Source: an uncultured Chloroflexia bacterium
Lineage (GTDB): Bacteria > Chloroflexota > Anaerolineae > JAAYZQ01
DNA length: 64,000 bases
Assembly: GCA_963700285.1 (NCBI GenBank)
Contig: CAVOXA010000010.1
Coordinates: forward strand, 1,920,001-1,984,000
Reading direction: 5' to 3'
Part shown: positions 26,489 through 55,524 of the stretch, piece by piece
Layout: each line of letters begins with the position of its first letter
How positions within the stretch are numbered: position 1 is the stretch's first letter
Notes under the pieces: model-generated
Told to the model about the DNA's origin: nothing
The model's input: the letters and a program-made list of their open reading frames with translations, nothing else
Database searches by the model: none
Program-made: the position numbers and the translations under genes

Positions 26489-26553
26489 TTCTCCGGGTTG
26501 CACCGGCTCTTCAGGCCGGTTCTGGTGTCTGGCGGCGGACTGTGGCCCACCGT

Positions 26554-26609
26554 CTTTTGTTTGTTGCAGCGACAAACAAAAGTATAGCATGAATTGCTGA
26601 GCATGTCAA
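26554..26609 (-). promoter_or_regulatory. ROK gene promoter with a XylR-type palindromic operator
   Basis: Minus strand TTGACA-17bp-TATACT (TGn extended); perfect 11-7-11 palindrome CTTTTGTTTGT-N7-ACAAACAAAAG at 26554-26582 over the predicted start site. Confidence 0.8.
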
Positions 26610-26774
26610 GTCCTGGCTTCTCTGCCTTGTGGATCGTTTTCGGCGAGAACCATCTGTCGTGTGCGCAGGCTGGAACGCACGTCTTTCTGACTGATTCGAG
26701 TGGGAACACCTTGGTCCGCGTGATAGCCCTGGGCGATGGCGATTTCAGACCAGGAACAGCAAGGCCCCCTCATG

Positions 26775-26806
26775 GACCCCGGAGGTTTTCTGCAACCTCC
26801 GAGGTC
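26775..26806. repeat. Palindromic REP-like element
   Basis: GACCCCGGAGGTT-N6-AACCTCCGAGGTC; similar in style to 34171-34202. Confidence 0.65.
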
Positions 26807-26975
26807 TGAGTAAGATGGTCGCCGGGCTCGGGATCGGGTAGAGGCTCGTCGACGTCGGGGTCGATGCGGACGGTTCTGGTGAACAGACGCGCGGGGATGG
26901 CGATGGTGGGGTGGGTTGGGATGTCTGAGACTCGGATTAGTTGCATGGTTGCTGGTTTCGTGTTCCTAGTTTCTA

Positions 26976-27050
26976 GACCCTTAGGGTCCAAGGCAGACCC
27001 TAAGGGTCAAGATGAGATCCTTCACTCCGTTCAGGATAGCCTTCGGCTAT
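26976..27050. repeat. Stacked palindromic REP-like elements
   Basis: GACCCTTAGGGTC-N7-GACCCTAAGGGTC, then GAGATCCTTCACTCCGTTCAGGATAGCCTTCGGCTAT. Confidence 0.6.
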
Positions 27051-28268
27051 TCCTCTCCTGCCGCGTAGGTGAAGCTGAGGCCGGTCAGGCGGACGTCGGC
27101 GGTGGCGCTGGTGTCGGATAGCTCGATCTTGAGCTTGAGGCGGTAGAAGCTGACGGATAGGTCGGAGGCGGTGACGCGGGAATCGGCGCCGGTGTTGGTG
27201 GCGGCCTGGGTGTAGGCGCCGCTGTCGTCGGCCTGGTACTTGATGGTGACGGTGGTGTTGGCCGGTGGCGTTCTTGACGGTGGCGGTGATGTTGAGCAGG
27301 CGCTTCTCGACGCCGGGGCGGTCGCCGTCGTGCCAGGAGGTCTCGAGAGCGCCGTCCTGCAGGGCGGAGCCGCCGTCCTGCAGGGCGGAGCCGCCGTCCT
27401 GCAGGGCGGAGCCGCCGGCGTGGCAGATGCCCTCGTCGCTGCCGGACTTGCCGGTAAGGATGATCTCACCGCCGCAGCTGGCGGCAATAGGCGTCATGCC
27501 GCTGGCGCCGAAGGTGGGAGTGAGGAAGTCGGTGAAGTGGTTGCCGACCAGGAGCTTGAAAGCGGCGGAGCTGGTGGTCAGCTCGTAGTAGAGCAGCTCG
27601 CCGCGCCAGGTCAGGAGGCCGATGCTGGAGGGGCTGGCGGCGGAGTCGGGGATGCGGGCGACGCGCTCGACACGGTAGCCGGTGTAGGCCAGGAGGTCGC
27701 GGGTGACGGTGCCGTCGGGGTTGGGGTGGGCGCCGGAGAGGAGCCAGAGGTCGTTGTCGTGGACGCAGAAGGGGCAGCCAGCGGAGGGATAGGCGCCGGT
27801 GTCGGCGGGCAGGACGGCCATGTCCTCGAGCTTGCGGACGGAGGTCTTGGCGTAGGCAACGGTGCGCATGACGCGGAGCTCGCCGTTGAGAATCGAGCAG
27901 ACGATGAGCAGGTCGTCCTTGAGGCCGGTGGCGAAGATGGGGACCAGGTCGTCGGCGGGGTTGTAGTGGCCCTCGAGGAGCGAGCCGTCGGTCATCATGC
28001 GGTAGATGCGGCAGTCGGGCTGGACGAGATAGACCCGGCCGCCGACGTAGGAGCGGGCGTTGGGGGCGTCATAGAAGATGCCCTCGACGGCGGTCAGGCC
28101 GGAATGGGTCAGGTGGGATGAGAGGGCCGGGGCGCGGCGCAGCTCCTGGCGGTCGAGGGTGGGCAGGAGGCCGGTCAGGGTGTATAAGTCGCCGGGCTTG
28201 CGGTGGATGTGCTGGCCGGCATTGGTCCAGAGGTTCTGGTGGATGCGGTGGAGGCGGATCTTGGGCAT
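27047..28268 (-). CDS. Phage virion protein (putative head-stabilization/tail-nozzle-like), +1 frameshift near 27261
   Basis: Joins ORFs 27000..28268 and 27047..27487; span 1222 = 407 codons + 1; C-terminal LETSWHDGDRPGVEKRLLNIT...FYRLKLKIEL...VRLTGLSFTY beta domain. Confidence 0.5.
27351..27417. repeat. 21-bp in-frame tandem repeat x3 (GGSALQD)
   Basis: GCCGTCCTGCAGGGCGGAGCC exact at 27351, 27372 and 27393. Confidence 0.95.
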
Positions 28269-28280
28269 GGGTTAGGGCCT

Positions 28281-28307
28281 AGCCACGAATTGCACGAATT
28301 ACACGAA
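28281..28307. repeat. CACGAATT-type short repeat element
   Basis: AGCCACGAATTGCACGAATT, identical over 20 bp to 31383-31402. Confidence 0.8.
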
Positions 28308-28343
28308 GGGGGAGGATGGGATCTCTTCGGAACCCGGAGGAGC

Positions 28344-28601
28344 TCATGGTAGGGGGCTCGTGGGTAGAGGTTCTACCCTGACGTTTTCTAGGACCCAGGC
28401 GCTTAGTTCTACGTCCCATTCTAGGTCGCCGGCGACTATCTTGCCGTTGATTAGGGGCGCGGGCGGGGGTTCGGTGAGGCCGTGGCACTCGACGAGGATG
28501 ATGGGCTGGGCGGTGTCGTGGTCGGGGATGATTTGCATGACGGTGTAGCTGTCGGGCGGGCAGGTCTTGGACCATTGTAGGTAGTCGGTGGGTTGGGTCA
28601 T
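28344..28601 (-). CDS. Hypothetical 85-aa protein
   Basis: ATG with SD GGGAGG, and its own promoter upstream. Confidence 0.7.
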   Translation of the reverse strand: MTQPTDYLQWSKTCPPDSYTVMQIIPDHDTAQPIILVECHGLTEPPPAPLINGKIVAGDLEWDVELSAWVLENVRVEPLPTSPLP

Positions 28602-28662
28602 TAACTGGCCTCCCGTGTACGAGTGTCAAGCTCAGTGTAGGCAGATGTGCTGTCTGTTGAAC

Positions 28663-28714
28663 ATTATACGACGAAACGGGAATGGCGTCAAGTCTAGACC
28701 GAACAAGTGTTCGG
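28663..28714 (-). promoter_or_regulatory. Promoter with an adjacent LexA (SOS) box
   Basis: Minus strand TTGACG-17bp-TATAAT; CCGAAC-AAGT-GTTCGG at 28699-28714 matches GAAC-N4-GTTC. Confidence 0.75.
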
Positions 28715-28807
28715 AACGGGAAGGGGATAGGACACGGGTAGGGTTGCGGAGGGCTGCTTGCGGTTCAGGTCGATCCATGGTATACTTTGAGCAGCTCCGA
28801 GCATCTA

Positions 28808-29869
28808 ATGTCCCAAGGGAGAGAGAGAATGCGGGGTCGGCTTCGCGCTACGACGGTTGCTGTTGCAGTGTTGCTTGTGGCGATGGGGATCCTTGCCGTC
28901 GTGGTGGCTGGCTCCACCCTGGATGGCGCGTTGTATGAGGGTTCGGACTCTCAAGCGTTCCTACCAGTGGTAATGCAACCTCTGCCGACGCCATCCACTC
29001 CACCCATTTCTGTCCAGCGTTATCGAATGGAGTATGCCATTCAGACTGCGGAGCAATATGTGTGGATGCCTGCTCCGCGCTATTGGGATGGCAATGGGGT
29101 ACGCCAACTCTCGATTCTTCAGGTTTCCCCTGCCCCAAAAGATCGCTTCCGAGAGAAGAATGGAACGGAGATAGTCTACTGGGAGAACCCCGCCCAGATA
29201 ACCCAGACGTTCAAGGTTGTTTTTGATACGGAGATTGGCTTGCTGGAGTACGGCATTGACGAAAACAGACAGTGGGTGCCCTATGATGCCCTCTCAGATC
29301 TGTATCAGAAGAACACCGCGGCGACCATACACACACAAGTAGACCATCCGGAGATTCAAAGTCAGGCGAAACTGATCATTGGCGACGAGGCAAATCCATA
29401 CCACAAAGCGAAGCTGATCCATCGGTGGGTAGCGCAGAACATCGGAGAGGGCGACGGACCTGAAGATGCACTCTCAACTCTGCGGCGCGGGACTGCTGCC
29501 TGTGGAGGCCATGCCAACCTCTTTACAGCTCTGTGCCGGGCTAGCGGGGTGCCGGCTCGCAACGTATCGGGAATGCATAATCCTCGCGGGACGCTCTTCC
29601 AAAGCGGAAGCTTGCTTGACGGAACCCTGGGCTTTCATGTTTGGTCTGAGTTCTACCTACCTGACTACGGTTGGGTGCAGGTTGAGCCATCCGTGGACGC
29701 CATGTTCACACAGATTGACAGAGCCCGGCTACCAACCTCTAAGGGCAATGACATACATCTGGGGAACGGTCATGCTTGGGATGAGCTGTTCTGGTTTCAT
29801 GTTCCGTGGCATCGGACTAGTCAGCTAGAGCATAGTCCCGTGTGGTTGACGGTTACGAGGCTGCCCTAG
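28808..29869 (+). CDS. Secreted transglutaminase-like (Cys-His) domain protein
   Basis: N-terminal hydrophobic signal; AACGGHANLFTALCRASGVPAR and FHVWSEFYLPDYGWVQVEP; TTGCGG-17bp-TATACT promoter at 28758-28786. Confidence 0.85.
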   Translation: MSQGRERMRGRLRATTVAVAVLLVAMGILAVVVAGSTLDGALYEGSDSQAFLPVVMQPLPTPSTPPISVQRYRMEYAIQTAEQYVWMPAPRYWDGNGVRQLSILQVSPAPKDRFREKNGTEIVYWENPAQITQTFKVVFDTEIGLLEYGIDENRQWVPYDALSDLYQKNTAATIHTQVDHPEIQSQAKLIIGDEANPYHKAKLIHRWVAQNIGEGDGPEDALSTLRRGTAACGGHANLFTALCRASGVPARNVSGMHNPRGTLFQSGSLLDGTLGFHVWSEFYLPDYGWVQVEPSVDAMFTQIDRARLPTSKGNDIHLGNGHAWDELFWFHVPWHRTSQLEHSPVWLTVTRLP

Positions 29870-29965
29870 CCAGACTGCTACCCAGCCTATTTGTTTGCGG
29901 GCCGCGCTGAGCTGCACTCGGGGCGGTCCGCTGCTGATCTAGGGCTTTGAAGACAAGCGATTGGG

Positions 29966-31319
29966 CTACCAGCCGTCCTGCCGGTCCCAACGGTCTAGGG
30001 GAGGCAGGTGGCCGAGGCCGGCGGCGGTGGCGGCCTGGCGGCGGGCGTAGGCTTTGAGGCCGCGGTCGAAGTCTCTGAGGCGGGCGCTGGCCCACTCGCG
30101 GAACTTGCGGGGGACGCGGTAGCCGGGGGTTTCCATGATGCGCTCCTCGGCGACGTAGCCGACGGCGCCCTGGATGATGAGGAGGAGAGTTCCCTCCTGC
30201 GTCGGGACATGCTCGGCGTCGTCGGGGATGGTGGTGGCAGAGGCGCCGTCCAGGCCGTTGAGGGTGCAGAGGCGCTGGTACCAGACGCGGACGACGTCGC
30301 CGGACTGGGGCTCGGTGGATGAGTCAATGAAGAGGGTGTCGCCCCAGACCTCGTAGCTGATCCACTCGGGCGGGAACTTGGGCGAGCCGGCCGTGTAGGG
30401 CCACCAGACGCGGGTGACGCGGAGCAGGTCGGTGATGGTGGACAGGTCAATCTCGCGGCCGTTGGCGGAGAGGGTCAGAGTGGTGATGGTCTCCTGGGGG
30501 GCGATCTCGTTGAAGCGGCCGACGGCCCAGCGGATGGCCTCGTCGATGTCGGCCTGGTCGAAGGCGTAGGCGTAGCGCCACCAGGCGGGCTGGTCGTGGC
30601 GGATGCCGTAGCGTCCGCCGCAGCATCCGCCGATGCGGAAGGCTTTGCCGTGCTGGCTGGCCCAGTCGAGCAAGCGCTTGACGACGTCGGAGTCGACGGT
30701 CAGGGACTCGGATAGCTCGACGGCCCGCTGGTGGGCGGCGTAGTGGCAGGCGCCGTTGATGAGGTAGGTGATGTCATCGGCGGGGATGGTGGTCGACGTC
30801 GCGCCGTTGAGGCCGTTGAGGAGAGCGGGCGTGGAGTACCAGATTCTGACCTTTTCGCCGGTAGCGGGTTCGGTGCGGCTGTCGACGTAGAGGATGGCGC
30901 CGGGCCAGATGTCGAACTGGGCCCAGGCGGGCGGGTAGCCGGGGTCGGCGCTGTCGTAGGGCCACCAGACCTTGTGGACACGGAGGATGTCCGAAAGACT
31001 GGAGATGTCGATCTCGCGGCCATCAGCGGAGAGGGTCAGGGTGGTGACGGCCAGGCGGGGGCTGTGGCGGTTGTATTCCTCGATGGCCTTCTCGATGGCT
31101 TCGTCGACGACGTCGGCGTCCCATTTCTCGTTGCCGCTGTCCTGCAGGTGGAGCTCGACGCGGTCGCGGAGGGTGGATCAGGGTCTCGGTGGAGGAGAGA
31201 ACGGGGACGGGGTCGGGGGCGCCGTGGGCGTGCTCGAGCTGGGTGCGGACGCGGTCGCGGATGGCGTTGAGGGTCAGGCTGCTGGCGGTGGTGGCCGGGG
31301 TGCCGGTGCCGGTGGACAT
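29966..31319 (-). CDS. Phage head-tail adaptor-like protein with two copies of the domain, +1 frameshift near 31176
   Basis: Hand translation shows the frame open from about 31175 to 29966. The two repeats share DEAI...TTLTLSA.GREID.S...D.LRV..VWWPY....P..PP.W....W...L..DS.TEP..G..VR.WY....LNGL.GA..TTIP. Span 1354 = 451 codons + 1. Confidence 0.6.
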
Positions 31320-31330
31320 GGCGTTAGCTC

Positions 31331-31565
31331 GTTGGAAGGTTGGAACGTTGGAACGTTCGTGGGTGGCCGTTGCTGTTGACCGAGCCACGAATTGCACGAA
31401 TTCTGCGAATTGGGTTCATGGTGTCTCCCAAGCTCACCGCAAAGACGCGAAGGGCGCCAAGGTTTTCGGAAGACGGCTGGACTGTGGTCCAGCCGGAGCA
31501 GTTGGAAAGCAAGCCCCTCGTTGGGTAGTTGGGGATTGCTTCGTCGCTTCGCTCCTCGCAATGAC
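31331..31565. repeat. Cluster of four different short repeat / REP-like elements
   Basis: (GTTGGAAC)n-like run; AGCCACGAATTGCACGAATT; CACCGCAAAGACGCGAAGGGCGCCAAG (similar to 61911-61937); GGATTGCTTCGTCGCTTCGCTCCTCGCAATGAC. Confidence 0.7.
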
Positions 31566-31569
31566 GTGA

Positions 31570-31950
31570 TCACGAGACTGTCTCCTGGTCGGGGTTGGTG
31601 AAGTCCCAGCCGGCTTTTTGGCGCCAGACGTAGATGGTGCCGGCGTCGAGGTAGAAGGTGACCTGGCCGTTGGCGTTGGTGCGGCCGGAGGCGATGGTTG
31701 TGGTGCCGCCAGCGTCGCTGGTGACCCAGACGCGGGCGTCGGGAATGGGGCTGGCGTCGGCGTCGGAGGTCAGGGTGTAGGTGAAGGTGGTGGCACCGGT
31801 GCCCGCGCCGATGGCGGCGAGCTGGGGCTTGGTGTAGATAAAGACGGGCTCGATGCTGACGTTGGAGGTGCTGGAGCTGGCGGTCAGGAGGACCAGGTCG
31901 GCGCTGCTCTCGGCCTGGGTGAGCGTGAAGAGGTAGACGCCGGGGGAGAG
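31570..31950 (-). pseudogene. 5'-truncated phage virion-like protein fragment
   Basis: Open frame without a start: PGVYLFTLTQAESSADLVLL...TFTYTLTSDADASPIPDARVWVTSD...GRTNANGQVTFYLDAGTIYVWRQKAGWDFTNPDQETVS*. Confidence 0.6.
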
Positions 31951-31966
31951 CAGTGATCGATTGAGG

Positions 31967-32288
31967 TCAGAGCTCTTCGGCCAGTCTCAAAACCTCGGCA
32001 ACCACGACGTCGCTCAACCTAATCCCACCCTGGCGCAGTTGGTCGACCAGAGGCGAAACCGCTTCGACCAGACCAAGCTGCTTTGCTTTCAGCAGGACGC
32101 CCAAGGTTCCGGTCAGGGATAGGCCCAGCCTCTTTGCATGGCTCCTTGCCAGGCGCTCATCGATGATGACCAAGCCGGCTTCCATCTCCTGTGCCAGGGC
32201 AATCACTTCAGCCTCGCCCCGATCCAGGTCCGAGAGGAGATCGGCTCGGCGTGGCATTCACCACTACCAGTTGAGGACGATCAGGCAC
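31967..32288 (-). pseudogene. DUF3368 / PIN-domain protein with an internal deletion
   Basis: N-terminal MPDRPQLVVVNATP joins out of frame to LDRGEAEVIALA...IIDERLAR...GTLGVLLKAK; the middle of the domain is missing. Confidence 0.8.
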
Positions 32289-32536
32289 TGGCCAGATCCT
32301 CAGCCAGTTCCTTGGGCTTCTGCCCTACAGGTGACAGACCGAAACGGGTCAATTCGAACATGAAAGCCACCCGGCTCATCCCTGCCAGTTCAGCAGCCAC
32401 GCCGGTAGACACGCGGTCCTGTTCGTAGAGCTTTACTGCCAGCAGAAGCCGTGCTTCGTCCGCGAATTCCTGAGGGCTCTTTCAAAGAGAGCAACAAGTC
32501 ATCCGGATACGGTATAGCCAGTATATTCGTTGCCAT
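32281..32536 (-). CDS. UPF0175-family antitoxin-like protein, +1 frameshift near 32481
   Basis: MATNILAIPYPDDLLLSLK|SPQEFADEARLLLAVKLYEQDRVSTGVAAELAGMSRVAFMFEL; span 256 = 85 codons + 1. Confidence 0.8.
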
Positions 32537-32627
32537 CACCGGTCACCTCCCTCTGACATTTTAGCCCTCGTCTTTGCAGCTGTCAACGTCCTTCGAGTAG
32601 TCTGACAGTCCTGATGGGATTGCAGCC

Positions 32628-34142
32628 CTAGCCAAACATCGGCGCTAGCCGCCGGTAGAGCTCTAGATACTGGCTGTAGCCCTCCTGGTAGACGCTGGCC
32701 TGGCCCGGATCCGGCTCGATGGTCTCCCCCAGGCGCACCATGTTGGCCACGCCCTCTTCCAGGCTGCTGAAGGCGCCGGTCGCCGTCGCCGCCATCAGCG
32801 CCGCTCCCAAGCAGGCCGCGTCCTCAACCGCCACCGGCGTCAGTGGCTTTTGCAGCACGCTGGCCTTGATCTGCAGCCACAGCGCGCTCCGCGCCCCGCC
32901 GCCCAGGCTGCGTACTTTCTGCACGGGGACGCCCAACTGCTCGACGATGTCCAGGTTCGCCTTCAGCATGTAGGCCACCGACTCGATGATGGCCCGGATG
33001 AAATGGGCCCTGGTATGCCGCAGTGTAGCCCCATAAAAGACGGCCCGTGCCGCTGGATTGAACTCGGGACAGGCCGCTCCCTCCAGGTGGGGCAGGACGA
33101 TCAAGCCCTCGGATCCGGCGGGAACCTGGGCGGCCGCGGCCATCATGAGGTCGTAGGCATCGAGGCCAGCCTCGCGAGCCACCCGAGTCTCCAGGTCAAA
33201 GAATTGGTCGCGGAACCAGCGCAAGGCCATGCCCGCCGTCTGGCCCCAGGGCAGCAGGCAGTAGGAGTCCTGCCTCGCGTGATAGTGGCACGGCACACGC
33301 CGCCGGGGGTCGCAGCGGGGCCGCTCCAGTGTGGCCAGGACGGCCAGCGCCCCTCCCGTCGTCTCGGTCACGATACCAGGGGCGATGTTTCCCGCACCCA
33401 CCGCACCAGCGGCCTGGTCCATGGCCCCGGTGACGGCCAGTGTCCTGGTGCTGAGCCCCGAGCGCCTCAGCACCCTCCCTGCTGAGCGGGCCTACCAACT
33501 GCCCCCGGCTCCATCAGCCGGCCCATGTTTTCGGGGGACAGCCCAATGGCGTCCAACATCGGCTGCCACCAGGCTTTGCGCCGGATGTCCAGCATCAGGG
33601 ACAAAGTCTGCAGGGCCAATTCCGTGACGAACTGGTTCGTCAGCCGGTAGAGCAAATAGTCCTCAAGCAGCAGGAACCTGGCCGTCTGCTCAAAAGCCTG
33701 CGGCTCGTTGCGCTTTCAGCCACAGGATCTTGCAGGCGGGCCAGCCGGGCGCTACCTCAGGCTGGCCGGTGATGCGGTAGGTCTCTTCGATGTCGAACTG
33801 TTTTCCAAGCCACTCAGCTTCCTGCACCGCTCGGTTGTCCAGCCAGACGATGGCCCGGCGCGTAGGCCGGCCCTCACGGTCCACGGGAATCAGGGTCTCG
33901 CCCTGACTGGAGATGGCCAGGGCTTGGACCGAGTCCGCACCCAGGCCGCTGTGGCGCAGGGCATTTCGTACAGCGTTGCAAAGGGCCAGCCAGTACACCT
34001 CCGCATTCAGCTCAACCCAGGCAGGCGCCGGAGTCAGGAGCTGGTATTCTTGCCGGTCAAGCGCCAGCAGCCGGCCCTCCAGATCAAAGAGAGCGGCTTT
34101 GAGGGCGGTCGTCCCCGCGTCGATGCCCAGAAAAAGATCCAT
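32628..34142 (-). CDS. FGGY-family carbohydrate kinase (xylulokinase-like) with three single-base frameshifts (~33715, ~33497, ~33457)
   Basis: LGIDAGTT, WLDNRA, GAMDQAAGAVG, LPHLEG, GGGARS; spread over four track ORFs. Confidence 0.88.
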
Positions 34143-43999: not shown

Positions 44000-46279
44000 T
44001 CAGTCGCTTTCCGCAGTGTTGGGTGCTTGGGCGAGCACAGGAGGGACTCGTCCGACCACGAAGGCCAGCCGTGTGTGCCAGGGAATGGTCTGGTTGGCCA
44101 GTTGGCCTTCAAAGACAGCCCGCACCAGGGCGAGCTCATCGCCCGTGATCCCATCACACCCAATAGGATGCAGCAGGTGTTGGGCGTAGGAAGGGCGCTC
44201 GCTCTGTGGTTCCGTCGCAAACCAGCGCTCCAAGGTGGCTTTGCTGACAATCATTTCTGCCTCTTGGACCTGTTCCTCAACGAGCACTTTTTCGAAACCA
44301 GCCGCCACCAACGCGCGCTGCAAATCTGTCACGTCCCAGCTCACAAGTGGGTCATCAAGGCTGGCATAGATCTGCTCCTCGGCCTCAATCACTCGCCGCT
44401 GGAGATCGTCGCCCAAGGGGGCAAGATCAACCAGATCGTATAGCCGCTGGGCATGTCTTACCACCGTCTCAGCTAGGCTGAGGCGTCCGCCTGGACGGAA
44501 CACTGGGACCAATAGACACAGCGCCGCGCACTTGTCCGGGATGTGGGCCAGGGTGTTGCGGCCCACGATGGCATCAAAGCGCAGTTCGGTCTCACCGCGC
44601 AGCGCCAACAGCTCGGGAAGCTCGTCGGGCGCACCTACGATGACCACGGGGCGCTCCAATTCCGGCAGCTGTTCAACCTGCTGGCGCAGGCCCTCACCAG
44701 CCTTCCGGTCCTGGGCAAGAACCCAGGTTCCACCCTCGGGCGTGCGCCGCAAGATCTCCCAGGTCAGCAGTCCAGAACCGGCATTGAGATCCAGCACGAC
44801 GTGGTGGCGCTGCACCTGAGCAGCATCCAAGATCCGGTCGCGCACCTGTCCCAATCGCTCCCCGGCGTTGCCGATGGTACGCTGCAGCCATCTATCGTGG
44901 GCTCGGTCCCCGACGGTATAGGTCAATACCTCGAGCTGGCTTTCCCCCTCGACCATAGCTGCCAGTTGGGCCTCGCGACGGCGGGCCACCTGGTCGCGGA
45001 TGCGCCGCTCGTAGCCCTGATCGCTCGGCTGATAAAAAGTCCGCCCCTGGAGGGCGTCGGGCAGGTACTGCTGGGCGATCCAGTGCTCGCGGAAAGCGTG
45101 GGGATAGAGGTAGCCTTGGCCATGACCAAAACCCTCCTTGTCGCGGCTGCCATCCTTGAGGTGGGTGGGCACCTCGCCCTCTCGCTCCTGCTCCACGAGG
45201 GTCAGGGCATCAAAGAAGGCCAGGGTAGAGTTGGACTTGGGGGCCGTGGCCAGGTAAAGGACCGCTTCGGCCAAGTGAAAGCGGCCTTCGGGCAGGCCTA
45301 CCCGATCAAAGGCATCGGCGCAGGCCATGACCACGTGGAGAGCGTTGGCGTCGGCCAAGCCTACGTCTTCGCCGGCAAAGATCAGCATCCGGCGAAAGAT
45401 AAAACGGGGATCCTCTCCAGCATAGACCATCTTGGCCAGCCAGTACAGTGCCGCATCGGGGTCGGAGCCGCGCAGCGACTTGATAAAAGCGCTGATGGTG
45501 TCATAGTGATAGTCGCCGTCCTTGTCATAGAGCACTGCCCGGCGCTGGATACTCTCCTCAGCCACGGCCATGTCCACAACAATGACACCACCCTCGTTGG
45601 GTGGGGTAGTTTCCAGGGCCAGTTCCAGGGCATTGAGCACACCTCGGGCATCGCCGTTGGCCACATCCACCAGGTGGCTCAGGGCCTCATCGTGGATATC
45701 CACTTCTAACTGCCCATAGCCCCGCTCGGGATCGGCCAGGGCGTTTCGGGCAATCGCGCGCAGGTCTCTGTCAGTCAGGGAACGGAACTGGAAGATGCGG
45801 CTGCGACTGACCAGGGGACGGTTGACGCTAAAATAGGGGTTCTCCGTCGTGGCCCCGATCAGGATAACCGTTCCGTTTTCCACCCAAGGCAGGAGAGCAT
45901 CCTGCTGAGCCTTGTTCCAGCGGTGTACCTCATCGACAAAGAGGATGGTGCGCTGGTTGTGCAGGGCGCGTCGTTCTTGAGCCTCTCTAGTCACCCGGCG
46001 GATGTCGGCCACGCCGGCCAGCACGGCGTTGAGGGTTTCAAAGTGACTGGCAGTGGTGTTTGCGATGACCGCAGCCAGGGTCGTCTTGCCAGTGCCAGGC
46101 GGCCCGTAAAAGATGACGGAGGAGAGCTGGTCGGCCTGGATAGCGCGGCGCAGGAGCCGCCCTGGACCGACGATGTGCTCCTGGCCAGCGAATTCGTCCA
46201 GGCTGCGGGGTCGCATCCTGGCAGCCAGTGGTGCCTCGCGCTCGATCTGTTCCCTGCGGGCGTGGTCAAATAGGTCCAT
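44000..46279 (-). CDS. rarA: RarA/MgsA AAA+ ATPase fused to a C-terminal SAM-methyltransferase-like domain
   Basis: APLAARMRP, GPPGTGKTT, DEVHRWNKAQQD, ATTENP, SAFIKSLRGSDPD, YLYPH; then VLDLNAGSG...FDAIVGRN...PGGRL. Confidence 0.9.
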   Translation of the reverse strand: MDLFDHARREQIEREAPLAARMRPRSLDEFAGQEHIVGPGRLLRRAIQADQLSSVIFYGPPGTGKTTLAAVIANTTASHFETLNAVLAGVADIRRVTREAQERRALHNQRTILFVDEVHRWNKAQQDALLPWVENGTVILIGATTENPYFSVNRPLVSRSRIFQFRSLTDRDLRAIARNALADPERGYGQLEVDIHDEALSHLVDVANGDARGVLNALELALETTPPNEGGVIVVDMAVAEESIQRRAVLYDKDGDYHYDTISAFIKSLRGSDPDAALYWLAKMVYAGEDPRFIFRRMLIFAGEDVGLADANALHVVMACADAFDRVGLPEGRFHLAEAVLYLATAPKSNSTLAFFDALTLVEQEREGEVPTHLKDGSRDKEGFGHGQGYLYPHAFREHWIAQQYLPDALQGRTFYQPSDQGYERRIRDQVARRREAQLAAMVEGESQLEVLTYTVGDRAHDRWLQRTIGNAGERLGQVRDRILDAAQVQRHHVVLDLNAGSGLLTWEILRRTPEGGTWVLAQDRKAGEGLRQQVEQLPELERPVVIVGAPDELPELLALRGETELRFDAIVGRNTLAHIPDKCAALCLLVPVFRPGGRLSLAETVVRHAQRLYDLVDLAPLGDDLQRRVIEAEEQIYASLDDPLVSWDVTDLQRALVAAGFEKVLVEEQVQEAEMIVSKATLERWFATEPQSERPSYAQHLLHPIGCDGITGDELALVRAVFEGQLANQTIPWHTRLAFVVGRVPPVLAQAPNTAESD

Positions 46280-46906
46280 AGTTTCTCTCCACCCGCATTG
46301 TACCAGAGAGTGCGAGACTGGGCCAGTCCAACGGCACACTGAGCGAAGCTACCTTGGTATCATCACACGGACATCGTCAACTCTGTCATTCTGGGCAAAC
46401 CCACTGCACCTGGGCGCAACCTATCTGGCAATCGTGTGCCAGAGCAGTTGTGATTTCACTTCATCCCTTTCTCAAAAAAGAGCCGAGCTTCCAGGTCAGA
46501 TGGCGATGCGAAGCCATCGGTCTCTATTGGGAAACACGTGCAATCAGATTCTGTCACACCCTGGGGTAAGGGAAAGCAATCTCTGGTTGTCTAGAACAGA
46601 TGAAGGTAGCAGCTTTTCCGCCGAGGCTGGGGGTGAGTAGCCAGCCAAAGTGCGCCCTCTTACGGACAGTCAAGGCTGGATCTTGTATGATGGGTCTGCC
46701 ATGCCGCCTTGCGCGTTCCCCACGCCTGGACGTGGTGGACAGCACAGGTGGCAACACAGGTTTGATCGAATTTGCCGTCTTTGGTACGCCTTTCGAGAAC
46801 TAGCCACGTCTGCAAGCAGCGGGCAGAGTGCAGAGTGCAAGATCCTTTCGTGGCGCGACTCTTTTCCGCACAGCCGCTGGTATGAATGAGGGAAAGAAGG
46901 AGACCT

Positions 46907-49463: not shown

Positions 49464-50258
49464 CTAATTTTGGGGTCCGGGCGAGCAGGCAAACCGCCTC
49501 ACCAGCGACTGAACCTCCTCATGGTTCCAGGGGAGGAATCCTCCGCTCCACTCTCGGAGCGCGTGGAAGGCAAGGACAGCCAGGGCACAGCCCGGTACCT
49601 CTGGTGGGAGCAATTCCTGCTCCTCGTGTAAACGTACAAAACGGGCATAGATCTCGTCCGGCATGCTCTCGGCGCCTTCGCGGCGGATGGTGGCCTGCAT
49701 GGCCGTATCTATTACCCCGGGGCGAAAGGCGATGGCCGTGATCTCGGGTTCTTCCGCAGCCAGGATGCGGGTGAAATGATTCAGGCCAGCCTTGGCGCTG
49801 CAATAGGGAGCCCAGCCAGGATATACATTGACTGCTGCCCCAGCGGAAACGTTGATGACGCGCCCCCTGCTCCGGCGCAGGTAGGGAAGCGCTGCCTGGG
49901 TGAGCATGAACGGGCCCAGCAGGTTCACCGCCCAACTCTCCTTCCACTGCTGGGGGTCCCCATCGGCGATGGGTGCGATGGGCGTTAGCACACCGGCATT
50001 GTTCACGACGGCGTCAATCTGGCCAAAAGCTTGGATGGTCTCAGCCACGAAGCGCTGGCAATTGGCCGCCTGGCTCACGTCGCCGGCCACGGCCAGGGCG
50101 CTCCCGCCTGCTGATTCGATCCCCCGAGCCACGGCCACCAGATCCTCCTCCGAACGCGCTGTCAGGACGACGTTGGATTCCATCTGGGCCGCGATGCGCG
50201 CCGTGGCCGCACCCAACCCGCGCGACGCTCCTGTGATCAATATTGTTTGCCTGGCCAT
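49464..50258 (-). CDS. SDR-family oxidoreductase
   Basis: TGASRGLG, NNAG, YCSAK. Confidence 0.93.
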   Translation of the reverse strand: MARQTILITGASRGLGAATARIAAQMESNVVLTARSEEDLVAVARGIESAGGSALAVAGDVSQAANCQRFVAETIQAFGQIDAVVNNAGVLTPIAPIADGDPQQWKESWAVNLLGPFMLTQAALPYLRRSRGRVINVSAGAAVNVYPGWAPYCSAKAGLNHFTRILAAEEPEITAIAFRPGVIDTAMQATIRREGAESMPDEIYARFVRLHEEQELLPPEVPGCALAVLAFHALREWSGGFLPWNHEEVQSLVRRFACSPGPQN

Positions 50259-50273
50259 AACACACCTCCACGA

Positions 50274-52046
50274 TCAGTCTCTGCCCGTCGCCTCCAGTGG
50301 GATCTCTGCCTCACCGGCCTCATCCTCGGACTTGACCCAGGCGAACTTTCGCCGCAGCGCCTTGGGATAGTATCGCTCCAGGACGTCGTATTCAACCTGT
50401 TCTCCCCACTGGAAGTAAACACGGGGATCGATGTATGACTTGAGGCTGGTACCCAGGTTCCACGTACGCTTTTTGGACGCGATGGATGACTGGGACTTGA
50501 CCTTATCCCGGGCCAGCCGGGCTTTCTCCAACTGCGCCTGGGTCCTTTCCACGCGGCGCTCGGCCACCTCGATCCTTTTTTCGTAACGCGCCTTCACTTT
50601 GTCGCGCTGCGCGGGTGTGGCAGCCTGTCTTTTCTCGCGGGCCTCCTTGCGTAGCTCGGTCAGGGCTTCCCGATAATCCCTGACCCGCTCGCGGTAGGTA
50701 CTCACGCGGACATCTGCTTTTTCCTGACGCTCTTTATACCGTTGGCGGCTGCGGGACCAGCTAGCGGGCGCCTGCTTGGTGTGATTGCACAATACGGCCG
50801 CTTCCAAGTTTGCCAGATTGGCGGCCTCCCACTTGATATACTCTGGATCACTGGCCTGGGTGTGCGAATCCACCAGGCTATCGCGGACGGCGATGGTCGC
50901 ATGGTGGGTACGGAACACCTTGGCCGTCAGCCCCGGCAGGATGCCGGACAGATAGACATTGACGTTGCGACTGCTGATGTCGGGAAAGATCTGGGGCATG
51001 TCCCGTGTAGGGTGGCCCCGGTCGCCGTACCCACTCGTGTTGGAGGGGCGCGCATCGCGGATCAACTCCTCCAGGTTCCCCTGGACCACCTCGGGCAGAT
51101 CGAGTGTCTTGTGCCACAGCACCGAGTCCTTGCCCAGGAACCGGAATTCCGCGCTGCCGTCGGGATGTAGGGTCACGTGCTCCGGGCGCAGGGTGGTAGC
51201 GCCGATCGTATCCGCTTCGTCCGGGTCTTTTTCGTCGCCGACACGCAGGCAGAGGGTGTCGATCAAGTAGCAGGCTGTGGCGATCATCCTGGATTTGGGT
51301 TCAGTATCGGCAAGGTCGCGCGAGATCTGCTCCCGAACCATGTCCAACCGGGCGTGCAACACGTGCGCCCGATCAAACTTGCGCGCTTCCCGTTCTTGCT
51401 TGATCGACGCGGTGTCGCTCAGCCACACGTATTTGAGTTTGGCCGACAGTTTGTCCTTCCATCGGGCCACCCACAATGACTCGGGCTGCCAGACGATCTG
51501 CTCCCACTCGCCGGGCAGCTGGGCTGCGTCGGGGCTGAGATTGAGCGTGATATCCTCACGGCGAGCGCCCTCTTTCCAGCGCCCGCGCAGCGGATGCTTG
51601 CCTCGACCCATAAAGATGCCGCTGGGCTCGACCACATAGTTGGCCAATTCGGTCCGCTCGCCATTCACAATGGCGTGCCCGTACTGCTCGCGCAGCGCCT
51701 CCCGCACGACCTTGCGCTCGGCAGCCAGGGCCTTGCGCTCCTCCTTGGTCAACCGCTCCTTGGCCTCCCGTTCCGCTTCTACGACCTGGATGGCGGGGCC
51801 GAAATCTATATCGTCTAGCTTGAGAGCGGGCTCATAACCCAACTCCTGGCTAAAGTCGGCCACAAAGTTCCTGGCAAAAACCTGGTCCTCTACATAGGGA
51901 GTGCCCTGTTTCCTGGCCCAGGCCATGGCCATTTCTTCTTGTTTGGGCGTCATCACCACCGGCAACCCTTGGATCGTGAGCACCAGGCCCAGGTGGGGTG
52001 GTGGATCGGGTACGATGACCCCGTTGTGGACAAGTTTCTCCAACAT
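50274..52046 (-). CDS. DNA topoisomerase IB, large eukaryote/archaea-like type
   Basis: LVHNGV; EPSGIFMGRGKHP; catalytic pentad in LRVGDEK, FLGKDS, AKVFRT, LCNH and GTSLKSYIDPR; long coiled-coil linker. Confidence 0.93.
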   Translation of the reverse strand: MLEKLVHNGVIVPDPPPHLGLVLTIQGLPVVMTPKQEEMAMAWARKQGTPYVEDQVFARNFVADFSQELGYEPALKLDDIDFGPAIQVVEAEREAKERLTKEERKALAAERKVVREALREQYGHAIVNGERTELANYVVEPSGIFMGRGKHPLRGRWKEGARREDITLNLSPDAAQLPGEWEQIVWQPESLWVARWKDKLSAKLKYVWLSDTASIKQEREARKFDRAHVLHARLDMVREQISRDLADTEPKSRMIATACYLIDTLCLRVGDEKDPDEADTIGATTLRPEHVTLHPDGSAEFRFLGKDSVLWHKTLDLPEVVQGNLEELIRDARPSNTSGYGDRGHPTRDMPQIFPDISSRNVNVYLSGILPGLTAKVFRTHHATIAVRDSLVDSHTQASDPEYIKWEAANLANLEAAVLCNHTKQAPASWSRSRQRYKERQEKADVRVSTYRERVRDYREALTELRKEAREKRQAATPAQRDKVKARYEKRIEVAERRVERTQAQLEKARLARDKVKSQSSIASKKRTWNLGTSLKSYIDPRVYFQWGEQVEYDVLERYYPKALRRKFAWVKSEDEAGEAEIPLEATGRD

Positions 52047-52209
52047 CTAGCTAGAGTTTTCCTTTCGCGACGCTATCTCACCAGAGCTCTCGATGGGCGA
52101 ATGTCTGTCTTTTGACCCGGACCCGCAGCCGAGCCAATTCTCACCTGATCAGAGACCTGCAGCGAATGAAGAGAGGCGCTGAAGCGCCCACTACGAACCT
52201 GGGCCTGCC

Positions 52210-53613
52210 CTACCAAGCGGAACGCTTGGCCAGGTCCCGCAGGCTGTAGAACGCCTGGCTGTATAGTATCGGGCTGTTGCCCGGATCCTTCGGATTCGCC
52301 CGGTGGGTGATGGAATACCAGCGCACCGGGTCGCACCACGCATACCAATAGGTGGTACCGAAATCAAGGTTAAAGAGGAACATCGGTCCCATCCAGGGCC
52401 AGTTGGCGTCGGCATAAGCATAGGCCCCGGCCAGGTATGCAGCTTGCTGAGATTCGCTGACCTCCATCCACTCGTGCTCCCCCAGCCCGCAGTCAGTATC
52501 GAGCACCCAGCCGAATTCGGTGACCCACATGGGCGACGTATCACCATAGTCAAGCATGACCTGGCGCTGTTCTTCAGCGCGCCGGAAATAGATGGGGCCC
52601 TTTGCCGCGTTGGGTGCTGTGCCCGGCGCGTCCGGCCCGCCGTAGGGGTGGCTGCCTAGAGCATCAAAGTAACCCTTGGCGCCGTGCTCGTACATGCCAC
52701 GCAGGAAAGTCAGATCCGGTATGACCTGGGGGGCGGCATAGAACGCTCGCGCCCAGGCGATGTTGGCCAGTGAGCCTCCGGTGGGTGCCAGGCCCGCGCT
52801 GACGACGATAGCCCGTGGATCGCCGGCCTTGATACCCTGGTAACCCGCCCGGAGCAACGCCGTGTACTGAGCCACATTGGGCCGCCCGCCCCACTCATAG
52901 TCAAGGTTGGGTTCGTTCCAGATCTCATAGGCCACCGTCTCCAGCCCCTGACCGCGCCAGGTGTCCGCGATGTGTGTCGCCAGTGCCTGGGCAAATTTCT
53001 GGAACGCGGCCCGGTCGGCCGCCGAGGCCGGTGGGCTCCCGATGCCAGATGGAGGCGGCCCGCCCAGACGCAACAGGATGTGGCGCACGTGCGGCACGAA
53101 CTCGCGCATCTGGTTGTCGACGGCCACCCAGTCGTAGCCAGGCCCGGTCCCAGCATTTTCCCAGGAGACATAGCCTTTGGCCCAATCAAAGCCCATCTCT
53201 GTCAGGATGGTAACGTGGTCCGCCGAAGCGATATTGGCCCCATAGCCCAAGTGAGCTGCCTGCACCGGTCTAAACCTCTGGGCAATCAACGGCAAAAAGA
53301 CCTTTTTGCCCTTTGAGTCCTGGTCGAATGACAGGACGAAAGAGCCAATCGCCGCAGCGGCCGGCGGCGGCGCCATACTCACTACCAGCAGAACCCCCGC
53401 CACCAACAGGAGAGCGATCACCAACACCAGGGACCGGGGCGCGCTCCCCCGTGGACCTGTTGTCCGTCTGGGGGAGCGGGAAGAACTAGCCTGCTTTCCG
53501 ATGGACAAAGATTTCCAACCAAACCTGTCCTGGCCCGGGTCTGCTTGCGCGACGGAGTACTTTCTGGGGTTACAATGCAAGGCTGCCACCCGGGTACCGG
53601 TGGGAAGGATCAC
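52210..53613 (-). CDS. Secreted clan GH-A glycoside hydrolase (GH5/GH39-like); true start probably downstream
   Basis: YEIWNEPN (acid/base), DALGSHPY, WVTEFGW (nucleophile); signal peptide followed by KVFLPLIA. Confidence 0.8.
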   Translation of the reverse strand: MILPTGTRVAALHCNPRKYSVAQADPGQDRFGWKSLSIGKQASSSRSPRRTTGPRGSAPRSLVLVIALLLVAGVLLVVSMAPPPAAAAIGSFVLSFDQDSKGKKVFLPLIAQRFRPVQAAHLGYGANIASADHVTILTEMGFDWAKGYVSWENAGTGPGYDWVAVDNQMREFVPHVRHILLRLGGPPPSGIGSPPASAADRAAFQKFAQALATHIADTWRGQGLETVAYEIWNEPNLDYEWGGRPNVAQYTALLRAGYQGIKAGDPRAIVVSAGLAPTGGSLANIAWARAFYAAPQVIPDLTFLRGMYEHGAKGYFDALGSHPYGGPDAPGTAPNAAKGPIYFRRAEEQRQVMLDYGDTSPMWVTEFGWVLDTDCGLGEHEWMEVSESQQAAYLAGAYAYADANWPWMGPMFLFNLDFGTTYWYAWCDPVRWYSITHRANPKDPGNSPILYSQAFYSLRDLAKRSAW

Positions 53614-53990
53614 TCGCCGCCAAAGAATTCTCTCAGCGTCTTGGCAACCTGGAAGACAAGGAATCCCGCCAGGATCATGCCAGCGATGGAGACCTTGGCG
53701 ACATCCGTGGTCTCTTCAAAATAGACGCGCTCGGGCGTGACGACGATGGCACCCAGGGGCCTGGCAGCAGAGGCAGCGCCACCACCCCCGCCTTCACCCT
53801 CGGCCACGGGGCCGCCTTCCTCGTCCGCTTCACCTGTGCCACTGCCAAAGCCCAGGCCAAAACCATAGCGGACTTGGGCCACGGGGATGATCGTCCTGTC
53901 TTCGACCACTTGCGGCTCACCAAAAGCGGTGCGCCAGTTGGCCGTGTCCCTCGCTTGCTCAACGATTTCGAATAGTCTGTTCAGAGACAT
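53610..53990 (-). CDS. GerW/YtfJ-family protein
   Basis: FGEP...TIIPVA.V.YGFG.G.G...GGGGG....PLGAIVV; C-terminal TM segment. Confidence 0.75.
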   Translation of the reverse strand: MSLNRLFEIVEQARDTANWRTAFGEPQVVEDRTIIPVAQVRYGFGLGFGSGTGEADEEGGPVAEGEGGGGGAASAARPLGAIVVTPERVYFEETTDVAKVSIAGMILAGFLVFQVAKTLREFFGGE

Positions 53991-54609: not shown

Positions 54610-55044
54610 ATGCCGCCATTAGCCCGACACTTTATCAAAACCGCGTTTGTCTACTTTGTCGTCGCCTTTGTGCTTGGTGCGCTGATGATGCTGGACCGCT
54701 GGCTGAATTTCAGCCGCTGGCTCAAAATGGTATACCTGGGCCAGCTACACCTGTTGGTCGTCGGCTGGATCACCCAGCTAGCCATTGGCGTCGCCTATTG
54801 GATGTTCCCCCGCTTGCGGAAAGAACAGGATCCCCGTCCCCGTGGTTCTGACGCCCTGACCTGGTTCGTGCTCATCGCGCTGAACGCCGGCTTGTTATTG
54901 CGCTTCTTGCTGGAGCCCTTCTATTTGATGGGGCCCCAGCCCTGGTTGGCAGCCCTGATGGCCCTGTCCGGCATCCTGCAGGCAGCCGCAGCCTTAGCCT
55001 TTGGCCTGCTCGTCTGGTCCCGAATTCGTCCCATGGAAACGTAG
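54610..55044 (+). CDS. 4-TM membrane protein (NnrS / heme-copper-oxidase-like fragment family)
   Basis: HLLVVGWITQLAIGVAYWMFP; LNAGLLLR. Confidence 0.65.
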   Translation: MPPLARHFIKTAFVYFVVAFVLGALMMLDRWLNFSRWLKMVYLGQLHLLVVGWITQLAIGVAYWMFPRLRKEQDPRPRGSDALTWFVLIALNAGLLLRFLLEPFYLMGPQPWLAALMALSGILQAAAALAFGLLVWSRIRPMET

Positions 55045-55053
55045 GGAGACACT

Positions 55054-55524
55054 GTGCCAACCACTTCTCGTACCTTTGTCAAAGCCTCTATCATCTATCT
55101 TTGCCTGGGCGCGATCTTGGGCGCACTCATGTACATCAACCGCTCCATCCCCCTGGGACCGTGGGTCGGCTATGTGCGCGTAACACATATCCAGATGCTC
55201 GTCGTCGGCTGGTTGACCCAGCTCATCCTGGGCGTGGCCTGGTGGCTCTTTCCCCCCTTGAAGATCGGCCTGCGAACGGATGCGCCCCTGCCCGTCCGGC
55301 GCGGGCAGACGCAGCGTGGCAGCGAGCCCCTGTTCTGGGCGACCTTTGTCTTCCTCAATGCTGGCATCCTGCTGCGAGCCATCGGCGAACCCATCTACAC
55401 CTGGACCAAGATCGACCTTTTCCGCTTTCTGGTGGCCATCTCCGGTCTCTTTTTGCTGCTGGCAGCAATGATGTTTGTGGCCAACATATGGAGCCGGGTC
55501 CGAGAGCTAGGGCGAGGGAAATAG
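55054..55524 (+). CDS. Paralog of the preceding membrane protein
   Basis: HIQMLVVGWLTQLILGVAWWLFP; LNAGILLR. Confidence 0.65.
   Translation: MPTTSRTFVKASIIYLCLGAILGALMYINRSIPLGPWVGYVRVTHIQMLVVGWLTQLILGVAWWLFPPLKIGLRTDAPLPVRRGQTQRGSEPLFWATFVFLNAGILLRAIGEPIYTWTKIDLFRFLVAISGLFLLLAAMMFVANIWSRVRELGRGK

What the first reader, a model, noticed from the sequence alone, without database searches (positions are those of the whole stretch)
50274..52046. Eukaryote/archaea-type large topoisomerase IB in a bacterial chromosome
Seen: a 590-aa ORF with the N-terminal HNGV and EP.G.F.GRG.HP segments, all five catalytic positions (R in LRVGDEK, K in GKDS, R in KVFRT, H in LCNH, Y in KSYIDPR) and a roughly 100-aa coiled-coil linker. 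Known: typical bacterial TopIB enzymes are short and poxvirus-like, while this architecture matches eukaryotic Top1 and the Thaumarchaeota/Aigarchaeota enzymes. The residue before the catalytic Tyr is Ser, and human N722S confers camptothecin resistance. Inference: an archaea-to-bacterium transfer now embedded among ordinary bacterial genes (SDR, amidohydrolase) with no mobile-element marks, possibly naturally camptothecin-resistant.
Basis: partly seen in the sequence, partly recalled or inferred. Interest (0 to 1): 0.85.

Follow-up and report, generated by a model that had tools for sequence, protein, structure and literature searches.

The report
Asgard-type long topoisomerase IB in bacteria
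A Chloroflexota (Anaerolineae) bacterium carries an intact, conserved gene for the long "eukaryote-type" DNA topoisomerase IB; it belongs to a large bacterial group whose closest relatives are Asgard archaeal enzymes and which likely entered bacteria long ago by gene transfer, although the papers searched place this long form only in archaea and eukaryotes.

Summary
Observation confirmed: 50274-52046 (-) encodes a 590-aa long topoisomerase IB with all three Pfam domains, five catalytic residues and a 96-aa helical linker. It is no one-off and no chimera: 21 of 22 other genomes of its family, 80 of 401 class genomes and 31 of 121 KSB1 genomes match it or its CAP domain. Gene order is conserved, dN/dS is 0.11 and codon use is host-like. 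Trees join the Anaerolineae+KSB1 enzymes with Hermod/Thor/Heimdall Asgard enzymes (100/98-99), not with the Thaumarchaeota-like rows; a shared insertion and linker length point to Hermodarchaeia. Nesting inside Asgard is unresolved (AU p=0.62). A second Anaerolineae clade arose separately (p=3e-35). It adds to, not replaces, TopA and type IIA enzymes. The Ser before Tyr is ancestral, not an N722S-like adaptation. Activity is untested. Seven paper searches found no report of the long form in bacteria; this scan had found it before on other DNA.

The parts
50274..52046 (-). long topoisomerase IB gene, 590 aa, single copy in the genome
51420..52037 (-). CAP module (Pfam Topoisom_I_N, residues 4-209) with Lip1 segment 140-153, Leu153 as in CsTOP1 L154
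51408..51434 (-). hinge segment, residues 205-213 with Tyr206, same letters as CsTOP1 in the HMMER alignment
50691..51410 (-). catalytic core (Pfam Topoisom_I, residues 213-452): R268 (51243-51245), K306 (51129-51131), R379 (50910-50912), H422 (50781-50783)
51000..51053 (-). loop insertion in the catalytic domain (residues 332-349, low pLDDT at 338-343) shared in sequence with Hermodarchaeia enzymes
50472..50759 (-). predicted two-helix basic linker, residues 430-525
50322..50504 (-). C-terminal domain (Pfam Topo_C_assoc, 515-575) with Ser537 (50436-50438) and catalytic Tyr538 (50433-50435)
52060..52063 (-). possible ribosome-binding site, 13 nt before the ATG; no conserved operator found upstream
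   Evidence: sequence
52210..53613 (-). upstream neighbour, no Pfam hit (glycoside-hydrolase-like by eye, recalled); context only, same place in 8 other genomes of the family
53610..53990 (-). YtfJ-like gene; context only, conserved upstream of the gene in many family members
49464..50258 (-). downstream SDR, 15 nt after the stop; context only, same order in G001, G002 and L112
48287..49459 (-). M20 amidohydrolase; context only

Best explanation
The gene encodes an intact long-form topoisomerase IB, predicted to clamp duplex DNA, nick one strand through Tyr538 and relax both positive and negative supercoils without ATP, and it likely came into bacteria in an ancient transfer from an Asgard archaeon close to Hermodarchaeia. 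Shown: domains, catalytic residues, purifying selection, host-like codon use, conserved position, wide presence in Anaerolineae families and in KSB1, and a bacterial clade joined to long-linker Asgard enzymes. Inferred from human TOP1 and CsTOP1: the chemistry (3'-phosphotyrosine, controlled rotation, no divalent metal). Inferred: direction archaeon to bacterium, then one bacterium-to-bacterium transfer between Anaerolineae and KSB1, then vertical inheritance. In the cell it most likely works as an accessory housekeeping swivel beside TopA and two type IIA enzymes; what it would add is ATP-free removal of positive supercoils ahead of transcription and replication, which TopA cannot do (established knowledge).
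For: Domains and residues. The model matches closed human TOP1-DNA structures over its whole length (TM 0.74 to 1K4T; 0.25 to Deinococcus 2F4Q). dN/dS 0.11 against the same-genus genome, 0.11-0.17 against five others; CAI 78th and GC3 73rd percentile of 1542 long ORFs. 21 of 22 family genomes; 80 of 401 class genomes, 47 of 273 high-quality ones; 31 of 121 KSB1; 54 of 151 Asgard. Tree support (UFBoot/SH-aLRT): Anaerolineae A + KSB1 100/99; plus Hermod, Thor, Heimdall 100/99 (LG+G4), 99/98 and 100/98 (PMSF); next Bathy/Jord 96/95 to 100/100. Grouping with eukaryote-like rows rejected, p=6e-5. Characters left out of the tree favour Hermod: His-to-Tyr span 116 in the query, 119-120 Hermod, 164-165 Heimdall, 210 Thor, 59-60 in 7 of 12 Bathy and 2 of 2 Jord; the HP-bearing insertion in 7 of 7 Hermod-clade, 7 of 21 printed Anaerolineae, 7 of 15 KSB1, 0 of 18 Thor, 0 of 5 Heimdall; 52% identity end to end with Hermodarchaeum L089. 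TopA kept in 76 of 80 carriers; two GyrA/ParC and two GyrB/ParE matches in the genome. Anaerolineae are named as frequent gene-exchange partners of Asgard (PMC13247210, passage).
Against: No activity or expression shown. The order inside the Asgard+bacteria clade is model-dependent: Hermod(+P0124) sister at 98/94 under LG+G4, but Thor sister at 53-57/26-31 under PMSF. AU tests did not reject Asgard monophyly (p=0.615) nor bacteria+Bathy/Jord (p=0.129); both used a quick tree that was 4 log-units below the best found. So nesting and direction are not proven. Outgroup rows called eukaryotic or Thaumarchaeota-like are unnamed representatives judged by length and motif; CsTOP1 was not on the tree; the named sample is the best 80 of 590 matches ranked against a Heimdall query, which favours Asgard. 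P0124, inside the clade, has no known host. All hosts are uncultured assemblies as far as the record titles show.
Confidence: 0.82

Rival explanations
1. Same enzyme, reverse route: a Bathyarchaeia-like TopIB entered bacteria first, gained the long linker and loop there, and passed from bacteria into Hermod-, Thor- and Heimdallarchaeia.
For: Asgard enzymes are split: Jordarchaeia and 6 further sampled Asgard genomes have the short-linker Bathy-type enzyme; 54 of 151 Asgard genomes match; AU tests leave both Asgard monophyly and bacteria+Bathy/Jord open.
Against: Bacteria form one clade (100/99) with no archaeal row inside it in any tree; three Asgard lineages each have their own fixed linker length, and Hermod and Thor loci have conserved neighbours, which needs up to three further transfers.
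Confidence: 0.1
2. The enzyme is active but serves a special job (DNA repair, G-quadruplex or R-loop handling, segregation) rather than bulk supercoil control, as reported for the short Deinococcus TopIB.
For: TopA and type IIA enzymes are kept; Deinococcus TopIB has G4 and segregation roles (10.1101/2020.06.24.169326, search listing only); one family carries a C-terminal extension and two have longer linkers.
Against: No LexA-type box or shared operator in 52 upstream regions, several with plain sigma-70-like hexamers; no conserved repair gene among recurrent neighbours. Not exclusive of the best explanation.
Confidence: 0.2
3. The long TopIB replaced TopA or a short bacterial TopIB in these lineages.
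For: topA of this assembly is frameshifted in at least three places; none of 80 carriers has a second, short-type match, against 9 of 321 others (one of the 9, G357, is unpublished).
Against: TopA not found in 4 of 80 carriers against 11 of 321 others (Fisher p=0.51); the same-genus genome has an unbroken topA match; short/long exclusion p=0.21.
Confidence: 0.04
4. Archaeal contamination, chimeric assembly or a recent decaying import.
For: The genome is a metagenome-type assembly with 6.5% contamination.
Against: 2.15-Mb contig; colinear at 90% over 4.7 kb with G001 and the same gene order in G002 and L112; contigs of an independent run cross both gene borders (X3 records 27 and 29); dN/dS 0.11.
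Confidence: 0.01

Closest known systems
Asgard archaeal TopIB (Hermod-, Thor-, Heimdallarchaeia); listed among eukaryotic signature proteins in 10.1101/2021.04.02.438162 (passage); longer linker noted in PMC8748870 (passage)
   Same: One clade with the bacterial enzymes; 52% identity end to end with Hermodarchaeum L089; near-equal linker, shared loop insertion, Trp nine residues before and Ser one before the catalytic Tyr.
   Different: Bacterial host with TopA and two type IIA enzymes; no Topo VI-A and no archaeal-type histone match in this genome; no assay of an Asgard enzyme seen in the papers read.
Caldiarchaeum subterraneum CsTOP1 (PDB 6Z01/6Z03; PMC4824112, PMC8748870)
   Same: Best solved relative (447 bits, 44% identity); CAP-hinge-CAT-linker-CTD layout, same hinge letters, same Lip1 Leu, no long N-terminal extension.
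   Different: Much shorter linker, no catalytic-domain insertion, Asn before the Tyr; crystallised open, while the model here is closed (TM 0.43-0.44 vs 0.74 to human).
Human TOP1 (PDB 1K4T, 1A36; 1RRJ shows Ser before the Tyr position)
   Same: Fold over the whole length (TM 0.72-0.74), catalytic pentad, long helical linker.
   Different: About 28% identity; no N-terminal domain; Lip1 Lys replaced by Leu; grouping with eukaryote-like rows rejected.
Short bacterial/poxvirus TopIB (Deinococcus radiodurans, PDB 2F4Q/3M4A)
   Same: Catalytic core fold; occurs in a few other Anaerolineae genomes.
   Different: No Topoisom_I_N domain, no linker, about 350-385 aa; 30 bits and TM 0.25 only.

Membership tests
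Type IB topoisomerase | Catalytic core with R-K-R-H-Y pentad | tested here: met
   R268, K306, R379, H422, Y538
Type IB topoisomerase | Relaxes positive and negative supercoils without ATP or Mg via 3'-phosphotyrosine | not testable with these tools
   inferred from CsTOP1 (PMC4824112) and human TOP1
Long (eukaryote/archaea-type) TopIB | CAP module (PF02919) with Lip1 and hinge Tyr | tested here: met
   (163 bits, cut-off 25)
Long (eukaryote/archaea-type) TopIB | Helical linker and separate C-terminal domain (PF14370) carrying the Tyr | tested here: met
Long-linker Asgard TopIB clade | Branches with Hermod/Thor/Heimdall enzymes | tested here: met
   100/99, 99/98, 100/98; AU alternative with Bathy/Jord not rejected, p=0.129
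Long-linker Asgard TopIB clade | Nested inside Asgard rather than sister to it | tested here: inconclusive
   nested in all three best trees but AU p=0.615 for Asgard monophyly; indels favour Hermod
Thaumarchaeota/Aigarchaeota TopIB | Member of the Thaumarchaeota clade | tested here: not met
   separated from the Thaumarchaeota-like rows (unnamed, judged by motif) by a 100/100 branch; CsTOP1 not on the tree
Eukaryotic Top1 | Groups with eukaryotic sequences; Asn before the Tyr | tested here: not met
   AU p=6e-5; Ser537
Short bacterial/poxviral TopIB | About 350 aa, no CAP domain of PF02919 type, no linker | tested here: not met
Camptothecin-resistant TopIB | No drug-stabilised cleavage complex | not testable with these tools
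   Ser537 and Leu153 are suggestive only; in CsTOP1, putting human residues round the Tyr did not give sensitivity (PMC8748870 Table 1)

The most novel reading that the evidence does not exclude
Bacteria took up the eukaryote-type swivel at least twice, both times in Anaerolineae (once shared with KSB1, from an Asgard archaeon close to Hermodarchaeia), and fixed it as a core gene because it removes positive supercoils without ATP; these gyrase-bearing bacteria would then run a hybrid, partly relaxed chromosome topology, and long TopIB could no longer be used as an archaeal/eukaryotic signature protein.
Probability: 0.35. Interest if true: 0.8.

Novelty: new variant of a known kind. Interest (0 to 1): 0.62.

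Why it matters
Papers on TopIB state that among prokaryotes the long form is archaeal (PMC4824112 abstract; PMC8748870 passages; PMC12680538 supplement speaks only of a subset of archaea), and it is counted as an Asgard eukaryotic signature protein. A near family-wide, selected copy in two bacterial phyla breaks that rule, records an old archaeon-bacterium exchange of an informational enzyme, and poses a testable question: how a cell with gyrase and TopA tolerates an enzyme that would undo negative supercoiling for free. The clade also offers natural linker lengths (His-to-Tyr span 59 to 263 residues) for testing how the linker sets rotation and drug response.

Tried and rejected
TopA replacement: rejected. 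Exclusion with short TopIB: not significant. Phage or mobile origin: one IMG/VR match only, 37%, outside the clade (one search repeated and added nothing); that scan finds close relatives only. Single bacterial origin for all Anaerolineae long TopIB: rejected, p=3e-35. N722S-like adaptation: rejected as a specific trait. SOS or other shared operator: none of five LexA-like patterns in 52 upstream regions of 57 loci tried. Partner genes: no TDP1-family match, but the control was silent too; no histone-fold match; no Topo VI-A match; genome 89% complete. Expression: the single RNA run (X20) gave only short pieces on the gene, the longer ones about 85% alike, so nothing is shown; all 24 runs held under a fifth of the words, so no habitat is claimed. 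NCBIfam gave no useful hit. A first AU test on the 100-row set, with unnamed P0124 forced among Asgard, did not finish and was dropped. Rows dropped: 19 of 177 fragments; trees used 100, 138, 51 and 53 chosen rows; several f39 proteins are cut by locus ends. No complex prediction was run.

Full report
Observation. The ORF at 50274-52046 (-) is a 590-aa protein with the three Pfam domains of eukaryotic topoisomerase I. R268, K306, R379, H422 and Y538 are in place, with S537 before the Tyr. The best solved relative is archaeal CsTOP1 (447 bits); human TOP1 scores 231-236 and the short Deinococcus enzyme 30. An AlphaFold2 model from a 47-row alignment (pLDDT 90) has a two-helix linker at 430-525 and matches closed human TOP1 (TM 0.74) better than open CsTOP1 (0.43-0.44) or short enzymes (0.25-0.30).

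Host and integrity. The gene is single-copy on a 2.15-Mb contig. The host is placed in Anaerolineae (Chloroflexota) from the names on homologues (3 of 120 listed are named 'Anaerolineae bacterium') and because the protein of same-family genome G011 is identical over the tree columns to that of a record titled Chloroflexota. G001 is colinear at 90% over 4.7 kb, and G002 and L112 keep upstream gene, TopIB, SDR and M20 in order. Contigs of run X3, about 91-95% alike, cross both gene borders. dN/dS is 0.11 against G001 and 0.11-0.17 against five more; CAI and GC3 lie at the 78th and 73rd percentile of 1542 long ORFs. The gene is therefore native, old and selected.

Distribution. 21 of 22 other genomes of the family match (two cut by contig ends, two split into pieces; the miss is 85% complete), and 3 of 18 genomes of other families. 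In an even class sample 80 of 401 have PF02919, with an all-or-none pattern in most families shown (f3 5/5, f19 4/4, f29 5/5, f18 3/3, f26 3/3; f4, f14, f22 0/15 each; f10 3/15). A phylum sample gave 4 of 401, two of them in one family of another class, whose proteins nest beside the query's family. KSB1 gave 31 of 121, Asgard 54 of 151. None of 14 control genomes matched PF02919. Single records labelled Calditrichaeota and Cytophagia fall inside the KSB1 group and may be mislabelled. G357, flagged unpublished, is one non-carrier in the 401-genome counts and one of the 9 short-type matches.

Origin. Anaerolineae clade A plus KSB1 is one clade (100/99). It joins Hermod-, Thor- and Heimdall-labelled enzymes at 100/99 (LG+G4, 100 rows), 99/98 (PMSF, 51 rows) and 100/98 (PMSF, 53 rows); Bathyarchaeia/Jordarchaeia come next. 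The sister inside is unstable: Hermod with unnamed P0124 (98/94) under LG+G4, Thor with no real support under PMSF. AU tests on the 51-row quick tree rejected grouping with eukaryote-like rows (p=6e-5) and one clade for all bacteria (p=3e-35), but not Asgard monophyly (p=0.615) nor bacteria+Bathy/Jord (p=0.129). Characters outside the tree columns favour Hermod: linker span, the spacing across the catalytic-domain loop (73 in the query and in 7 of 7 Hermod-clade rows; 62 Heimdall; 76-77 Thor; 56 in the 5 of 12 Bathy rows measured) and the HP-bearing insertion. I grouped four rows titled Promethearchaeota or Hodarchaeota with Hermod, and several titled 'archaeon' or Promethearchaeota with Thor, by tree position or identity. 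Outgroup rows are unnamed and called eukaryotic or Thaumarchaeota-like from length and motif. 15 of the 80 class carriers belong to families f39 and f60; the five placed on trees form a separate clade (100/100 with P0135) near the Thaumarchaeota-like rows, with Asn before the Tyr and longer linkers, and their named homologues are also Chloroflexi/Anaerolineae: a second acquisition.

How it likely works. By established TopIB chemistry (recalled, and shown for CsTOP1 in PMC4824112) the CAP and catalytic modules close round DNA, Tyr538 forms a 3'-linked nick, the free end rotates against the basic linker, and the nick is resealed; no ATP or metal is needed. It does not replace TopA: 76 of 80 carriers and 310 of 321 others have a PF01131 match (p=0.51; one carrier match is weak). 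This genome has two GyrA/ParC and two GyrB/ParE matches. No shared operator or partner gene was found. I commit to an accessory housekeeping role, ATP-free relief of positive supercoils; this step is inference.

Camptothecin. Ser before the Tyr is in 12 of 12 Bathy, 2 of 2 Jord, 18 of 18 Thor, 5 of 5 Heimdall, 6 of 7 Hermod, 14 of 15 KSB1 and 24 of 25 Anaerolineae rows (the two bacterial misses are truncated). CsTOP1 has Asn and is resistant; swapping in human residues round the Tyr did not sensitise it, while linker and Lip1 changes did (PMC8748870 passages). The query has the CsTOP1 Lip1 Leu, as do 117 of 120 homologues. Insensitivity is likely but inherited, not an adaptation.

Literature. 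Seven searches of open PMC and bioRxiv found no paper reporting long TopIB in Chloroflexota or KSB1. Seen: PMC4824112, abstract and passages, no 'Chlorofl' or 'Anaerol'; PMC8748870, abstract, passages and a term search of 3 supplements, one picture file unread; PMC12680538, passages, term search of 6 supplements with two unread, and part 3 of file 1; PMC9348778, 10.1101/2021.04.02.438162, PMC8185306 and PMC13247210, passages only; PMC2621148 and 10.1101/2020.06.24.169326, search listings only. Figures, bioRxiv supplements and subscription papers were not visible and could hold bacterial leaves. Database annotators already call many of these proteins 'DNA topoisomerase I'. This scan reported the same clade earlier on other genomes; my reading was fixed before that call, and those notes are not independent support.

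Verdict. Real, intact and old; a known enzyme type in a domain of life where the papers searched do not place it, with an Asgard link that is well supported as a clade and unproven as to direction. New variant of a known kind; interest 0.62.

Noticed in passing
G000:C9:177500-179300 (L057-L060): This assembly's only topA match is frameshifted in at least three places, while the same-genus genome has an unbroken match; probably assembly error, but decay beside the TopIB is not excluded.
   Followed up: partly
G000:C10:2137536-2138789 and C10:894431-894616; C1:154479-156270: Two type IIA sets: one adjacent B/A pair on C1, and on C10 a B and an A gene 1.24 Mb apart, the A match in an open frame of only 525 aa.
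   Followed up: no
L023-L037 (families f39, f60): A second, independent clade of long TopIB in Anaerolineae: about 620-650 aa in f60 and about 780-800 aa in f39, the latter with an insertion in the catalytic domain and a linker span of 263.
   Followed up: partly
L038, L053, P0122 (family f33): TopIB with a C-terminal extension of about 150-170 aa; no Pfam hit on it; GNAT-like by eye and in earlier scan notes.
   Followed up: partly
L022:4986-6521 (IMGVR_UViG_3300044799_000154, 121 kb): A viral-collection contig carries an archaeal-type long TopIB (511 aa, 37%) near a ribonucleotide reductase; possibly a large archaeal virus with its own TopIB.
   Followed up: partly
P0100 (972 aa): Clade A TopIB fused to a class V aminotransferase domain in one 3-member cluster; real fusion or lost stop not checked.
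   Followed up: no
L054, L056 (family f65, other Chloroflexota class): Their TopIB nests beside the query's family, suggesting a later transfer between classes.
   Followed up: partly
P0124 (669 aa, 80-kb contig, host unknown): Sits between the Asgard and bacterial enzymes, has the HP insertion and a 64-residue insert in the CAP domain; its host would bear on the donor.
   Followed up: partly
L074 and other KSB1 loci; L063-L064: KSB1 TopIB lies beside tsaE/tsaB/accD-type core genes; in two Heimdall loci it follows an NrdR-ATP-cone-NrdD fusion.
   Followed up: no
window 26000-33000: Strong positive GC skew; a 422-aa ORF without Pfam hit (27000-28268, -) with a perfect 21-nt tandem repeat (27350-27417) and a transglutaminase-like gene (28787-29869).
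   Followed up: no
window 54610-55524 (+): Two tandem small membrane proteins, each with a weak match to the N-terminal part of the COX1 family.
   Followed up: no
window 44000-46282 (-): RarA/MgsA AAA ATPase with a C-terminal extension of about 320 aa that looks methyltransferase-like by eye (no Pfam hit there).
   Followed up: no
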